This document shows positions 6,001 to 45,000 of a stretch of 64,000 bases of DNA, piece after piece. Position 1 is the stretch's first letter, and each line of letters starts with the position of its first letter. The position numbers were made by a program. This DNA is from Mytilus californianus (taxonomy: Eukaryota), in assembly GCF_021869535.1 (NCBI RefSeq), contig NW_026262701.1, forward strand, positions 110,732,001 through 110,796,000, given 5' to 3'.

Positions 6001-9000
6001 TACCTGCTCCTTCCTCATCATGATCAATAACATTTTCTCTGATGTCATCATATTGATCATCGTACAGTATAGACTTGTCTCCTTCTCTCTTGTTACACCG
6101 AGTTATTAACAGGAATGCTATTAAAGCTATCACTAAAAATATAAAGTTAAATTTGTTATAAACAGGACTGCTATAAAAGCTATCACTGAAAATATAAATT
6201 TAAGTTTGTTATAAACTGAAGGCTATTAAACCTATCACTGGCAATAGAACTCTTAACAATTTATCATTATCACAGAAATAAATAAGTTTAATGCATTGTT
6301 TTCATACAATAATACTAACAACAATCAACTTGTCAATATATTGGTAGAAGACAGTGAGATATTTATATCAAGAAATAAACTGCCTAGTATAGTTTAAAAA
6401 AACACAATACTTAGATTGAGTTCTTCAATCCATAGTAAATAGGATGTATTATATTATATTTACACATGACTGCAATAATTCTGATAAATATAACAAGACG
6501 AACCTTGAGAAGTTGCTCACTAATGATACCCTCCTATAGTATTTGAATTAACAGGAGGTTGACGAGCAATGGAGATGGAAATTCAAGAAACAGTAAATTC
6601 AGAAATTATTGGTTTGCATGCATAAATTATTGTGATTTTTGAAGAATGGAATGGTAGATCAATTATTGCAGTTTCGGCTAAATCTGCATGAAGATATGTA
6701 TCAGATATCAGATTGTTCTTATTATTGCGATACTAACAGGAAGGACAGACTAAGGTCACATAACCAGACAGTGGTAAACAAGAATATACTGTCCTTTCGA
6801 AGTCTGTGTTTAATGACCAGTAGATCTATGATGCTACAACCTGGTGGATGAGAATGCCTTATATATGCTAGGATAAAGAGTATTATTGCGTAATAGAGGT
6901 ATATTATACTTACATGATACTGCAAATATGCTGACAAATATAATGACCAGTAGTTCTGTTGTGACCCCTCCTTGTGCTACTTCTGCAATGGCTTGTTGAT
7001 TACATAATTCTCCCGTCCATCCAGGTGGACACTTACAACGGAATGTCTTAGGGAATGGAAGCTCTATACACTTTCCTCCTGAATAACAGGGATTCTTTCC
7101 TTTACAATAAAGAATCTTATCACAGGCAACACTAGATATTGGTGTACTGTGATTTGGACATCTAAAGATAAAAAAAAAACCAAAGTAAAAATACATCCAG
7201 TAAAACAAACCAAACGTTTTTTGAAGATTTGTATTTTTTTTAATGATATTAAAAAAAGACGTTGGTGTATGTCAATTAGACAGCAACCCAATGACACAAA
7301 AATCAAAAGACATCTACAAGTCAACATATGGTCTTAACAATAGTGCTGATGCAATGATATCGTCTTACTGTTTACAAATTCATTCTGTATGGTGTTATGT
7401 TTATTTAATAATGTCTTTCTCTTCATCTACTGTGGATTCATTATTATGCATTGTAGATTTCATGGGTACAGGTGAACCACAAATTTAAATGTTCACAACC
7501 AGTTTCACATTTTCAGTAGGCTTGTATGCAGTGAGGCAAAACCACAAAATTAAATGTCCATCAAAATGCAAGTGTTCCTCAATCCATGAAAATAAGTACC
7601 CACGAATAAAATTAATATGGATATCTATTTCTTTGATCCAGCAATACAGTTCAATACAATTCTGTCTGTTAAGACCATTTGAAAACCACTTTGAACAGCT
7701 TATAGCTTATAGGAAATGGTTGGTGTTTTGAGTGAACTTAAAAATGCAATTTGGTGGGTGGGTTCATTTTCCCAAAGAAATCTTTTATATAACAGAACAT
7801 CTTAAATTATCGGTAGTTCAGAACTTTAAAAAGTGACTCCACAATACAAACACTCGTTAAATTATGGAGCACCTTTCTGTGTCCATGAGTAAAATGAGGT
7901 AAAAACCAATGACAACTGCTTATTAAACATGAGTATACATCTATATAAATGTCTATGTAGTATTTTAAAGTATTATTACCTGCACTCATAGGTGCCCCAC
8001 AATGGGTAACATTCTTTTCTTATTGGTTTGCCCGCTTGACATACAACACCATTGCAGTCAGGTCGATAACATCCCATTCTCACATTAGAACTAATTGTCA
8101 TCACAGCTGCAGGACTTTCGGTACTCTCTTCCATCTTCATAGGGAACCATTTGTTGTCTACTCGAATGTCAGTTACACAGGCTGTGTTGAAAGAAACAAA
8201 TATATGATATGATAAGATAATTCTTACAAAAAAACTTATCTGAGGTTAGAAGAAGAGCAAACTTTAAATCTAATTTGAAGGGAATCTGACAAGAAATATA
8301 ATTCTATCCTGAAGGAAACAAAGTATTGTATACATATGAAATTTGATTGACCATGCACAACAGTATTTTTCAGTCTAATGAAGTTCAATCAATGCCTCAT
8401 TTTAAGATTGCAAATCTCCCAACTTCTGGTGTAGCAACATAATGAAATCACAGGATTTCAATGCTGATTAAAATTAACAAAGATTCTTTTCATCAAATCT
8501 ATTATCTAATTAAGGGATTTTTCTACAACAAAGCTTTGTTTTTTTTAATTTTAACAGAAATGACCTTTCCCAAAATTTCTAGAAAAAATACTTCAAAGAC
8601 CTAAACATTTTCTTTTCACCTGAAATCATATATCAAAACTTAAACTTACTATCACTAAGACCTTTAGCTTCAAATCTTGCATTGGGATCCCACACTACTC
8701 TGGATCCAGACACAATTCGGTCTCTACTTAGCACAAAAAAGTTTCCATTATATGTGTTGTCAAATGTCTCATTGAAGAAGCGGCCTTCACCATTGTCCAT
8801 TTTGAGTTGAATCCACTGTCCAGACCTTGTCAGTGTAACAGTATGCCACTGTCCATTGTTAGCTACGGCTTCTGACAATGCTATAACATTACTAACAGAA
8901 CTATCATGGCTTCCTAGGTTATATCTACCTTGAACATGGTTATTTACAATCTGAAAAAAGGTGTATATACATTTAAGATCTGAATCATTAATGCTACTTA

Positions 9001-42000: not shown

Positions 42001-45000
42001 TACTGATGAACTGCGAAAACTTCCCCCAATTTCCCTGACATTTTATATTCAGAAGATACTTATCTTAGCCATACCCCGATTTAACTATCTTACAATACCT
42101 GTGTGGTACTCTGTAGTCCTGTTGATTCTTCTACAGCCCTGAGAGTGAGGACAAACTGATGTGCCGTGGAAGCCTCGTAGTCCATACTCTGTAAAGTAGC
42201 TACCTCTCCATCATCACTCATAGTAAATAATGTTGATGTTTGACTCCTCTCATCTAACAGTGAAAATTTAATGGTGCCATCATAATCTGTATTTTCATCT
42301 GGAGTTTTGGATTGGAATGGTTTGGCTTTGATGCTTAAAGGGCTGCCATCATCATTTGTCAGTCTATCAAAAAGGTTCAAAAACATTATTGTCAAGTTAT
42401 GAAATTCTTACTTTACAAAGATACAAATACATTTACATGGTTTTAAAACTCCTAGCATACTGTCATACAAGAGACAGTACCAAAAGTCAAGAAATTGTTT
42501 ATGTAATTTAGGTCCTTTTCCAAATTGAGACAACCAAATATAGAGTACAAACTAATGTTTTAATGACTTTGAAATGTTGTCAAAATAAAACAATATATAT
42601 TGAGTGAAAGCTTTCTTTGTTAGTGATGCAACAGCTCACATTCAATCAGTGTTATCCTTAGTAACTAAATGTTCTTGGTGAAAAAATTCATACTGCTAAG
42701 ATAAATGTACAATGATTTATACAATTGGTACAAATTTGGACCTATAAGCCAGTTTTCTTCACAAGGCCTATCAAGAAAAAAACATTATGTTTACTTTCAA
42801 TTTTTTAAGGTAACAGATGAATATACAGTTACTGCAATACTATATTTTGTCAAGGAATTATATATAACTTAAATATCAATGTTTCTGTCATATGAGACAG
42901 TTTTTTGCATGTGTATGTAGGTGTAATTATACATCATATGTCATCCAATGTGAAAATACACTTTCAGAAATATGTAAATGAGTTTTATAAAGCAATAATT
43001 CTGATATACTATTGATTATTTACAATTTGCTCATAAATTAGCTAACCACAACCTGAATTGTCTATATGTAACTTACTGCTTTCCAGGTGTAAAAAACATA
43101 AGTAAAATAGCCAGCCAAATGTATTAAATGAACCCTCAAGCAAAACACTGATGAGTAGAAGGGATGTGTGTATCCCAAGATACTACAATAATGTAAATTT
43201 TATTACTAGACAGGTTTTGGAATGGGTAACTGGCTGATCGTATTCATGCCAGCTTCATAATTCTGATAATCCAATATTTGAATATTTATTTTGACCATTT
43301 TGAAACCTTTGAACCACACTGATTGTCTTACCTTGTTCCGATAAGAGGGTCATTCCACTATCAAAAGGCCAAGTCCTTTGAACTTATGAAAGAGTGACTG
43401 ATATTTCTATTAGTATTTTTTTCAAGATATAAAGAACAAATTTTATAGATTTATCAATATATTCTGACTTCCATGTAGTGACTAATGTTATTTTATGTGT
43501 AACATGTTTGCAAGATTATATTTCAGGTCATAATGTCACAAATGCACAAGAGTGAATTCTGTCTTTATTTTATGTTCTAAAATGAATGACCCTCTTAAAA
43601 TTAGAGAACTTGGTTTTCTTTGTATGTAAGAAGTAATGTATGGTAGTGTATTGACAAACTGTTAGCATCTACTAAAACCTTTTCCTTTTAAAGATTGAAT
43701 CTCCTAGATATGCATTAGTTCTTCCTAAAGCATCATGGATTGAAAATCACGGAAACGTGTTCATGTCAATGAGACAGCAACCATACAATACAACATAAAA
43801 AATAATAATATCACTGCTGTAAAGGTTATTTATGCTCAAGATGTATTGAAAAGTAATTATTTATCTGTAACATAAGATCAAATTGCTGAAAGAACCCTCC
43901 TCCTAAATTACTGAAATCTATCCTTTTGCATTGACCATATCTTGGTGTAAATAAGATACACACAATCAGACTTATGCCCTCATGGTTGTATCTAATACTA
44001 ACAGAAATGTAATAAATTTACATACTTGTAGCCAGCTTGATTATTTTCCATCACATATCCAATATAGGGGTCTTCAAAGAATTGTGGAGGTCTGGATCCA
44101 ACTAAAACTTTTACAATCTCAAAATTAGATTTCTGTATAACTGTTGGTGTTACTGATGTGTCCTGAGCTGATACAACCAATGAAAATTCTCGTCCTTTCT
44201 CATATTGTCCATGTCCTGTCTTTGTGGTTACAATCCTACCAATATGGCGGCCAGCAGCAATGATGTTTTGGATGGCAAACTTCCCTTCCCCAGCTAAAAA
44301 ATAACAGCAGCAAGAATATACTAGAATGTAAGAATATAAAACTGATGTAACAAAATGAAAACCTTCTGTACATGGCCTTAAACATAGAACAGTACTATTT
44401 TTTACTGACTCCAACCTACATTTAATAATTCCTATGTCAAGGGATAATATTAAACATCTCTTATAATGGCAAATCATTGGAATCTCTGCTGAAGGCAAAT
44501 CATCAATTTCCGTTATTTTCAAAACCTTGTCTAGACATTGGCTGATTTAGTAGCTTTGCATAAAATGTTGAAAACCATATATTGTAAGATCACCTATAAA
44601 CATTTCTTTGGTGTTTTTTTGTTATTGGGTTACTGTCTCACTGACATAGACCCTACATCTCCTATTTTGATATCCAATATATATAATGTATTAGATCACC
44701 AGACTCCAGGATATACATGTTATACTAGATCCTATGTTTGGAGACTATTTTACTCACCAGACTCCAGTATATATGTAATACTAGATCCTGTGTCTGCGTC
44801 ATCAGCCATAAGTTCATACACCAGCTCTCCGGCACTTGGATTGGTGGACACTGTAGCCAGGAAAGGTCGAGGCTCATTGATAAACCTTGGTTTCTCGTCA
44901 TTGACATCCTTTACAGTTAATGTCACTTTCACCAATGTATAGTCTATAATATATAAAATAATATTGCATTAGAATATTAGTATACAGATTATACATCACA

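What the first reader, a model, noticed from the sequence alone, without database searches (positions are those of the whole stretch)
6101..44808. Gene-wide pattern: tandem duplications repeatedly straddle splice sites
Seen: at least eight boundaries (exon 33, 28, 22 and 19 acceptors; exon 23, 18, 9 and 2 donors) have adjacent copies of different ages that include both exon sequence and the splice signal. Almost all copies are frame-breaking or stop-containing, and several show synonymous-biased change. Inference: either a boundary-focused duplication process (for example repair at spliced-RNA:DNA hybrids or template switching at GC/AT transitions) or survival bias, because only boundary-spanning duplicates can be spliced out harmlessly. 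Either way it is a visible nursery for alternative exons in a gene family known for duplicated exons.
Basis: partly seen in the sequence, partly recalled or inferred. Interest (0 to 1): 0.65.

Follow-up and report, generated by a model that had tools for sequence, protein, structure and literature searches.

The report
Splice-site tandem duplications in mussel cadherin
Six exon-intron boundaries of a mussel cadherin gene carry short tandem copies of the exon edge plus its splice signal, but intron sequence here is tandemly duplicated about as often, so this looks like ordinary duplication filtered by selection.

Summary
The window is Mytilus DNA. Six of the 8 claimed boundaries hold tandem copies that include both exon sequence and the splice signal: exon 33 and 22 acceptors, and exon 23, 18, 9 and 2 donors. 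At the exon 28 acceptor only the intronic acceptor signal is repeated. The exon 19 acceptor array is intronic and stops 25 nt short of the exon. Only one copy would give an in-frame, stop-free product (exon 23, +60 nt). The synonymous bias is weak.

Enrichment is not robust:
- A sensitivity-matched test gave 5 of 64 boundaries against 8-10% of intronic controls (P 0.5-0.8). Without satellite arrays the controls fall to 3-4% (P 0.04-0.10).
- TRF arrays alone gave 3 of 24 against 2.4 expected.
- An event-based null gave 7 against 2.5 expected (P 0.007).

Boundary arrays are older (76-90% identity) than non-satellite intronic arrays (8 of 10 at 96% or more). The best reading is random short tandem duplication, purged inside exons, tolerated across boundaries and kept longer there. 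No whole-exon copies exist, so "nursery for alternative exons" is unsupported. The virus-like stretch is a BEL/Pao LTR retrotransposon in intron 5, described only.

The parts
4251..64000 (-). Type III classical cadherin gene, exons 1 (cut by the window edge) to 34. Exons (first-last base): 2 44943-44758; 9 29749-29291; 18 20961-20720; 19 20468-20320; 22 17273-17159; 23 16185-16001; 28 11301-11082; 33 6132-6004; 34 4486-4251
   Evidence: Collinear tblastn of P0035, P0129, P0154 and P0139. GT-AG sites and phase continuity read. Pfam on single exons gave Cadherin, Ig_Shg, Laminin_G, EGF and the cadherin cytoplasmic domain. The M. edulis model P0062 is 100% identical on exon 17.
6102..6239 (-). 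Exon 33 acceptor array. The 53-bp unit is about 22 nt of intron end with the AG plus the first 31 nt of the exon. There are 2.6 copies, and a more diverged copy may reach about 6282.
   Evidence: TRF score 206; sequence; alignment 55/61; own scan score 50. The upstream acceptor copy lies at +53 nt and shifts the frame.
11302..11368 (-). Exon 28 acceptor: a 28-31-bp intronic array that ends at the last intron base and gives three T-rich AG sites. The exon part is not supported.
   Evidence: TRF score 80; sequence; exon-only test 141/500 shuffles. The upstream AGs lie at +28 and +59 nt; both shift the frame.
15590..16061 (-). Exon 23 donor array of about 8 units of 60 bp. The first unit (16061-16002) is wholly exonic. 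Seven copied donor positions follow, and 6 of them keep GT.
   Evidence: TRF scores 230-510; sequence; alignment 82/91; motif positions. Only the first copy (+60 nt) is in frame and free of stops.
17208..17397 (-). Exon 22 acceptor duplication. The unit of about 94-97 bp is about 30 nt of intron end plus the first 66 nt of the exon; 2 copies. The upstream copy has lost the homologous AG, and another AG lies 3 nt upstream.
   Evidence: TRF score 264; sequence; alignment 82/98; +97 nt, frameshift, 3 stops.
20493..20634 (-). Intronic 75-81-bp array x1.9 in intron 18, ending 25 nt upstream of the exon 19 acceptor. It does not demonstrably include exon sequence.
   Evidence: TRF score 193; sequence; shuffle tests 15/500 and 33/500.
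20636..20795 (-). Exon 18 donor duplication. The last 76 nt of the exon plus the donor are copied once just inside intron 18, with a roughly 9-nt gap; about 76% identity.
   Evidence: Own scan score 29; sequence; alignment 41/54; 0/500 shuffles. The copy's donors lie at +75 and +79 nt, with a stop at codon 2.
29185..29341 (-). Exon 9 donor duplication. The 79-bp unit is the last 51 nt of the exon plus about 27 nt of intron; 2 copies with identical donor motifs.
   Evidence: blastn 89% over 74 bp; sequence; alignment 69/78. TRF did not report it. +79 nt, frameshift, stop at codon 4.
44672..44796 (-). Exon 2 donor duplication. The 56-58-bp unit is the last 39 nt of the exon plus the donor; 2 copies. 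The copy's donor motif is weaker.
   Evidence: Own scan score 21; sequence; alignment 53/70; 0/500 shuffles; +58 nt, frameshift and stops.
32891..39977 (+). BEL/Pao LTR retrotransposon (the virus-like stretch), antisense in intron 5. LTRs at 32891-33548 and 39320-39977; one uninterrupted ORF at 33604-39162. Not part of the duplication pattern; described only.
   Evidence: LTR pair 658 bp, 100% identical; 5-bp target-site duplication; ORF of 1852 aa. Pfam gave Peptidase_A17, DUF1759, DUF5641, Integrase_H2C2 and rve. No stop or frameshift seen in the ORF.

Best explanation
Short tandem duplications (units of about 30-100 bp, probably from replication slippage or unequal exchange) arise all along this AT-rich, repeat-rich mussel gene.
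- Duplications wholly inside exons are removed by selection.
- Duplications wholly inside introns are neutral and turn over quickly.
- Duplications that span an exon-intron boundary are tolerated. The splice site that stays contiguous with the exon still gives the normal mRNA, and the extra copy then lies inside the intron.

The extra splice sites are either silent or give transcripts with a frameshift or early stop. These are expected to be degraded; that step is inferred from general knowledge of nonsense-mediated decay.

Exon-anchored copies stay visible longer, for two reasons. One half of each pair is under purifying selection, and imprecise deletions next to a splice site are harmful. 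Boundary duplicates therefore accumulate as older relics.

Shown: the duplications, their content, their ages and their reading-frame consequences. Inferred: the mutational mechanism, which site is used, and the fate of mis-spliced RNA.
For: - Six boundary duplications hold exon plus signal.
- Sensitivity-matched test: exon-edge 45-mers with a copy in the adjoining 300 nt of intron, 5 of 64. Intronic 45-mers, 121-161 of 1604 (7.5-10.0%). Fisher P 0.54-0.78.
- Coverage test: 6 of 64 boundaries against 14.0% of intronic positions, P 0.90. With units of 120 bp or less, 5.6%, P 0.15.
- TRF arrays alone: 3 of 24 straddle a boundary against 2.37 expected, P 0.43.
- Ages: boundary arrays are 76-90% identical. 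Of the non-satellite intronic arrays, 8 of 10 are 96% or more. Mann-Whitney P 0.0098, Fisher P 0.007 (identities).
- Every copy but one would shift the frame or add a stop.
- No tandem duplication lies inside an exon, other than the first unit of the exon 23 array.
- The M. edulis model P0062 uses the exon-contiguous sites at the exon 18 donor, exon 19, 22 and 23 acceptors and exon 23 donor.
- Precedent: in human F7 a 37-bp minisatellite spans the exon 7 donor, and only the most upstream donor is used (PMC1557585, abstract).
Against: - The event-based null lets an array enter an exon by less than one unit. It gives 7 straddling of 26 events against 2.47 expected (P 0.007). For non-satellite, non-microsatellite events it gives 7 of 20 against 1.84 (P 0.001).
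- Against satellite-free controls the matched test gives 5/64 against 2.8-3.7%, P 0.04-0.10.
- In all 6 cases the unit is mostly exon (shares 0.58 to about 0.9, from the coordinates). Uniform placement does not predict this.
- By my own arithmetic, slower decay of the exon half lengthens detectability only about 1.3-fold.
- No RNA data were available, so silence of the extra sites is not shown.
- This is one gene, chosen after the pattern was seen.
Confidence: 0.68

Rival explanations
1. A boundary-focused mutational process. Duplication breakpoints would be drawn to splice sites, for example by slippage between splice-consensus-like short motifs or by repair linked to transcription or splicing, so duplications form more often at boundaries than elsewhere.
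For: - The event-based excess is 7 against 2.47, or 1.84, expected.
- There is a 2-2.8-fold excess over satellite-free controls.
- In the exon 23 array the exonic start of the unit and the start of the intron share 7 of 8 bases, and that stretch is the donor motif itself.
- The exon 28 array ends exactly at the acceptor.
- Units are exon-rich in 6 of 6 cases.
Against: - No excess over the full intronic background, nor with TRF arrays alone.
- None of the 6 boundary arrays is 95% identical or more, whereas 8 of 10 non-satellite intronic arrays are 96% or more. A formation hotspot should also give very young boundary arrays.
- Microhomology at a splice motif was seen in 1 of the 4 young arrays inspected. 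Exon 22 has a 4-5-nt motif unrelated to the splice signal, and none was evident at exon 9.
- The choice of this gene was post hoc.
Confidence: 0.15
2. The copies are kept because they work. They would be alternative 5' or 3' splice sites that give protein variants or regulated unproductive splicing, and so be raw material for new alternative exons.
For: - The first extra donor of exon 23 would add 20 codons in frame with no stop.
- Donor motifs are kept in 6 of the 7 copied positions there, and exactly at exon 9.
- Boundary arrays persist to 10-24% divergence.
- There is a mild excess of third-position differences, 18 of 37.
Against: - Every other copy shifts the frame or adds a stop.
- There are no whole-exon copies.
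- Synonymous 16 against non-synonymous 21 is what a constrained exon paired with a neutral copy would give.
- The open frame across the 60-bp units follows from one stop-free unit being repeated.
- No database protein carries the extension. One search returned only P0062, which ends at the first donor. One search returned no hit. Both are weak evidence.
Confidence: 0.1
3. Assembly artefact: the tandem copies are mis-joined haplotypes or polishing errors in a highly heterozygous genome.
For: Bivalve assemblies are known to be hard (recalled, not checked). Only one assembly was seen.
Against: - The copies differ by 10-24% and by small indels. Several arrays have 3 to 8 units of graded divergence, which is not the pattern of duplicated haplotypes.
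- The window has no N run.
Confidence: 0.03

Closest known systems
Human F7 intron 7 minisatellite (37-bp VNTR whose first element spans the exon 7 donor; PMC1557585, abstract read)
   Same: It is a tandem array whose first unit includes the exon end. The authentic donor is followed by identical pseudo-donors. This is the same architecture as the exon 23 array (60 bp, about 8 units) and, with 2 copies, the exon 9 donor.
   Different: Here several boundaries in one gene are affected, acceptors as well as donors. Most cases have 2-3 copies rather than a VNTR. Whether the pseudo-sites are silent was tested in F7 but could not be tested here.
[quoted passage not shown] 2011, PMC3265369, abstract; Lehmann et al. 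2010, PMC2891723, passages; potato RdRp case PMC4974935, search listing only)
   Same: A short tandem duplication that contains a splice signal gives two usable sites. Premature stops in the duplicated piece and decay of mis-spliced RNA are invoked in both. The exon 23 array starts with a wholly exonic unit, as in that model.
   Different: Those cases create a new intron, or move one, inside coding sequence. Here pre-existing introns are merely lengthened, and protein continuity with relatives is kept at the usual sites.
Tandem exon duplication giving mutually exclusive exons
   Same: Local tandem duplication in a large adhesion-molecule gene, and a related cadherin family.
   Different: Those are whole exons with both splice sites and a matched length and frame. 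Here only exon edges are copied, and no whole-exon copy was found.

Membership tests
Boundary-spanning tandem array with pseudo-splice sites (F7 IVS7 type) | Head-to-tail array whose first or last unit contains the exon edge | tested here: met
   Met at 6 boundaries. Not met at exon 19. At exon 28 the array only abuts the exon.
Boundary-spanning tandem array with pseudo-splice sites (F7 IVS7 type) | Each unit carries a copy of the splice signal | tested here: met
   Exon 23: 6 of 7 copied donors keep GT. Exon 9: identical donor. Exon 33: AG kept. Exon 22: the homologous AG is lost but another lies 3 nt away. Exons 2 and 18: weaker donor motifs.
Boundary-spanning tandem array with pseudo-splice sites (F7 IVS7 type) | Pseudo-sites are silent and only the exon-contiguous site is used | not testable with these tools
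   No RNA data. The only support is indirect: the predicted M. edulis model P0062 uses the exon-contiguous sites.
Intron gain or sliding by tandem duplication | Intron position is new relative to orthologous genes | not testable with these tools
   No eukaryotic genome collection was available. Protein continuity with P0035, P0129, P0139 and P0154 shows no inserted or missing residues at exon 23/24.
Intron gain or sliding by tandem duplication | The duplicated unit is exonic and carries a proto-splice site | tested here: inconclusive
   Only the exon 23 array has a wholly exonic first unit, whose start resembles the donor. The other five units include true intron sequence.
Mutually exclusive exon cluster from tandem exon duplication | Whole-exon copies with both splice sites in the neighbouring intron | tested here: not met
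   A tblastn of 33 separate exon peptides gave 7 off-exon hits, all partial: 1 at the exon 9 copy, 5 in the exon 23 units and 1 weak hit in intron 1.
Type III classical cadherin (the host gene) | Many cadherin repeats, then the DE-cadherin-type Ig-like region, laminin G and EGF domains, a membrane span and the catenin-binding tail | tested here: met
   Pfam on single exons: Cadherin 1.2e-22 and 7.3e-23; Ig_Shg 1.5e-13 and 1.6e-06; Laminin_G_2 4.6e-10 and 1.2e-08; EGF 4.4e-08; PF01049 3.9e-23. A hydrophobic stretch lies in exons 32-33.
BEL/Pao LTR retrotransposon (the virus-like stretch) | Two LTRs, a target-site duplication, and a gag-pol ORF with the Pao-type protease and integrase | tested here: met
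   LTRs of 658 bp, 100% identical; 5-bp target duplication. Peptidase_A17 1.5e-52, DUF1759, DUF5641, Integrase_H2C2 and rve. No separate reverse-transcriptase family reached E 0.01 in that scan.

The most novel reading that the evidence does not exclude
In Mytilus, exon-intron boundaries are true hotspots for short tandem duplication. The breakpoints would be set by splice-consensus-like microhomology or by RNA-linked repair. That would explain why the units are exon-rich in 6 of 6 cases and why one array starts and ends on the donor motif. It would steadily feed new alternative splice sites and intron sliding.
Probability: 0.12. Interest if true: 0.65.

Novelty: new member of a known kind. 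Interest (0 to 1): 0.3.

Why it matters
If it is ordinary, as I judge, the locus is still useful. It is a natural series of duplicated donors (4) and acceptors (2) in one gene, of graded age. In it, splice-site choice between identical neighbours could be read directly from RNA data, as was done by mutagenesis for human F7.

It also warns annotators of bivalve genomes. Exon edges here are followed by look-alike splice sites that can mislead gene predictors.

If boundaries were real hotspots, that would bear on how alternative splice sites and shifted introns arise.

Tried and rejected
- Whole-exon duplicates: none found.
- Proteins carrying the exon 23 extension: one search returned only P0062, which stops at the first donor. 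One search returned no hit. Both searches were length-limited, so the evidence is weak.
- Synonymous bias as a sign of selection on the copies: rejected as not significant. By my own arithmetic, the 10/9/18 split gives chi-square of about 4 with 2 degrees of freedom.
- Exon parts at exons 28 and 19: not supported. The first try for exon 19 only matched itself, because query and target overlapped, and was redone.
- A first frame calculation for the donor extensions started one base off. It was corrected, and only one search is used for donors.
- Rows dropped before the event test:
  - 12 clusters of score 16-17 (chance level), among them the exon 32 and exon 17 donors.
  - 18815-19246 and 49501-49649, which are short matches at long offsets and not tandem.
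  - 392-547, which lies outside the transcribed span used.
  - All clusters inside the retroelement.
- The events and their unit sizes were listed by hand.
- The array 40160-40201 near the exon 5 donor does not touch the splice site.
- Literature searches found no genome-wide study of tandem duplications at exon-intron boundaries. This says nothing about journals outside the library, and paper supplements were not consulted.
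Full report
**What the window is.** The 64,000-base window has no N run and is AT-rich (27-39% G+C). It is not human. One exon translation is 100% identical to a Mytilus edulis protein model (P0062) and 65% identical to a Pinctada imbricata cadherin (P0035). Local tblastn of P0035 and of three full-length relatives (P0129, P0154, P0139) gives a collinear chain of matches on the minus strand from 63985 down to 4254.

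From these matches, GT-AG sites and phase continuity, I set 34 exons. Exon 1 is cut by the window edge. Pfam on single exons shows cadherin repeats, the DE-cadherin-type Ig-like region, two laminin G domains, EGF domains and the cadherin cytoplasmic domain. The gene is therefore a type III classical cadherin.

All protein searches used single exons or contiguous genomic stretches. The step of joining the exons into one coding sequence and searching with it was left out.

**The eight claimed boundaries.** Six hold up as tandem copies that include both exon sequence and the splice signal.
- *Exon 33 acceptor.* The 53-bp unit is about 22 nt of intron end with the AG plus the first 31 nt of the exon. 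There are 2.6 copies, 55/61 identical.
- *Exon 22 acceptor.* The unit of about 94 bp is about 30 nt of intron plus 66 nt of exon, 82/98 identical.
- *Exon 23 donor.* There are about 8 units of 60 bp over 15590-16061. Six of the seven copied donor positions keep GT.
- *Exon 9 donor.* The 79-bp unit is 69/78 identical, and the two donor motifs are identical. TRF missed this one.
- *Exon 18 donor.* An older copy, 41/54 identical with a gap near the donor. None of 500 shuffles reach its score.
- *Exon 2 donor.* None of 500 shuffles reach its score.

Two claims do not hold as stated.
- *Exon 28 acceptor.* A 28-31-bp array ends at the last base of the intron and triples the acceptor signal. Its supposed exon part is at chance level (141/500 shuffles).
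- *Exon 19 acceptor.* The array 20493-20634 is intronic and stops 25 nt short of the exon. The exon-only likeness is weak (33/500 shuffles).

**What the copies would do if used.**
- Donor copies: exon 2 +58 nt, exon 9 +79 nt, exon 18 +75 or +79 nt. All meet a stop within four codons.
- Exon 23 array: only the first extra donor (+60 nt) is in frame and stop-free, adding 20 codons. The later donors are out of frame because one unit is truncated to 34 nt.
- Acceptor copies: exon 33 +53 nt; exon 22 +97 nt; exon 28 +28 and +59 nt. All shift the frame.

'Synonymous-biased' is weak. In the six independent pairs, differences fall 10/9/18 on codon positions 1/2/3, with 16 synonymous and 21 non-synonymous. 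A constrained exon paired with a free copy would give about this.

No whole-exon copy exists in any intron. The tblastn of 33 separate exon peptides gave 7 off-exon hits, all partial.

**Is the co-location with splice sites more than chance?** I ran an unbiased offset scan of the whole window (offsets 8-400). I calibrated it on 20 locally shuffled copies; a score of 18 or more gives 0.9 false matches per window, against 99 real ones. I then clustered the matches. Different nulls give different answers.

| Test | Boundaries | Background or expectation | P |
|---|---|---|---|
| (a) Sensitivity-matched: 45 nt of exon edge against the adjoining 300 nt of intron | 5 of 64 | 121-161 of 1604 intronic 45-mers (7.5-10.0%) | 0.54-0.78 |
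| (a) Same, large satellite arrays left out of the controls | 5 of 64 | 2.8-3.7% | 0.04-0.10 |
| (b) Coverage | 6 of 64 | 14.0% of intronic positions | 0.90 |
| (b) Coverage, units of 120 bp or less | 6 of 64 | 5.6% | 0.15 |
| (c) TRF arrays alone | 3 of 24 straddle | 2.37 expected | 0.43 |
| (d) Event-based: an array may enter an exon by less than one unit | 7 of 26 events | 2.47 expected | 0.007 |
| (d) Same, satellites and microsatellites removed | 7 of 20 | 1.84 expected | 0.001 |
| (d) Same, arrays of score 40 or more only | 4 of 16 | 1.95 expected | 0.12 |

Three caveats apply:
- In test (a) the control points are not independent, so its P values are rough.
- Test (d) counts the exon 28 array as straddling and uses a hand-made event list.
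- No P value is corrected for the fact that the gene was flagged because of this pattern.

A 2-4-fold excess over non-satellite background remains possible.

**Ages.** The six boundary arrays are 76-90% identical between copies. Of the 10 non-satellite intronic arrays, 8 are 96-100% identical (identities; Mann-Whitney P 0.0098, Fisher P 0.007). A formation hotspot would be expected to give very young boundary arrays too, and none is seen. The pattern fits fast turnover of purely intronic duplications and longer persistence of exon-anchored ones.

By my own arithmetic, slower substitution in the exon half lengthens detectability only about 1.3-fold. Most of the difference would therefore have to come from protection against deletion next to splice sites. 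That is inference.

**Mechanism proposed.** Random short tandem duplication is followed by three fates: purged within exons, neutral and short-lived in introns, tolerated across boundaries. Boundary duplications are tolerated because the exon-contiguous site still gives the normal mRNA.

The closest precedent is the 37-bp minisatellite of human F7, whose first unit spans the exon 7 donor. Its identical downstream pseudo-donors are functional but not used (PMC1557585, abstract). Tandem duplication of splice signals is also the accepted route for some new or shifted introns (PMC3265369, abstract; PMC2891723, passages).

The M. edulis model P0062 uses the exon-contiguous sites at five of the boundaries discussed, but it is a prediction. 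No protein in the database carries the exon 23 extension (weak evidence).

**Unexplained.** In all six cases the unit is mostly exon, with shares from 0.58 to about 0.9 (coordinates). In the exon 23 array the first unit is wholly exonic. Its first eight bases match the first eight bases of the intron at 7 of 8 positions, so the array begins and ends on the donor motif. By eye, the intron part of both acceptor units is just long enough to hold a branch-point-like motif, the pyrimidine tract and the AG; no tool was run on this. These points keep a boundary-linked process alive as a minority reading (about 0.12-0.15).

**The virus-like stretch.** 32891-39977 on the plus strand is a BEL/Pao LTR retrotransposon lying antisense in intron 5.
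- The two 658-bp LTRs are 100% identical.
- It has a 5-bp target duplication.
- Its single ORF of 1852 codons is uninterrupted.
- Pfam finds Pao protease, DUF1759, DUF5641 and integrase domains.

I saw no stop or frameshift in the ORF. The element was only described and plays no part in the duplication pattern. It was excluded from all nulls.

**What stayed unchecked.** Searches found single-locus and intron-gain precedents. They found no genome-wide study of tandem duplications at exon-intron boundaries in the held library.

**Verdict.** It is a new set of examples of a known kind. Interest is modest.

Noticed in passing
window 32891-39977 (+): BEL/Pao LTR retrotransposon, antisense in intron 5 of the cadherin gene. 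It has identical 658-bp LTRs, a 5-bp target duplication and one uninterrupted 1852-codon ORF, so it looks like a very recent insertion. Described only.
   Followed up: partly
window 9277-9822, 47692-48404, 55114-55812; solo unit 16934-17019: A satellite of about 160 bp occurs as arrays of 3-4 units at three places, and as a single unit at a fourth, 83-94% alike. It is dispersed, so probably carried by a mobile element.
   Followed up: partly
window 44944-63279 (intron 1, 18.3 kb): Intron 1 is packed with further arrays: 192 bp x3.6 (58028-58746), 160 bp x4.6 (60864-61611), 144 bp (51617-52092), 52 bp x6 (45061-45373), 43 bp x4.2 (62819-62997) and a C25 run (63025-63049). These raise the intronic background to 14%.
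   Followed up: partly
protein P0062 against window 24174-15999: The public M. edulis model P0062 (577 aa) joins exons 15-23 of this cadherin to a C-type lectin tail. It leaves out exon 20 and part of exon 21. It looks like a chimeric gene prediction.
   Followed up: no
window 27478-27775 and 30249-30550: A direct repeat of about 300 bp, 86% identical, lies in introns 10 and 8 and holds a (GGAC)n microsatellite. It is a dispersed repeat rather than a tandem duplication.
   Followed up: no
window 43937-44019 and 54912-54992: An 83-bp stretch starting 7 nt after the exon 3 donor matches an inverted copy in intron 1 at 78%. A repeat fragment sits directly against a splice site.
   Followed up: no
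window 20158-20280: A perfect 40-bp x3.1 array lies 39 nt downstream of the exon 19 donor. It is very young and close to the boundary without touching it.
   Followed up: no
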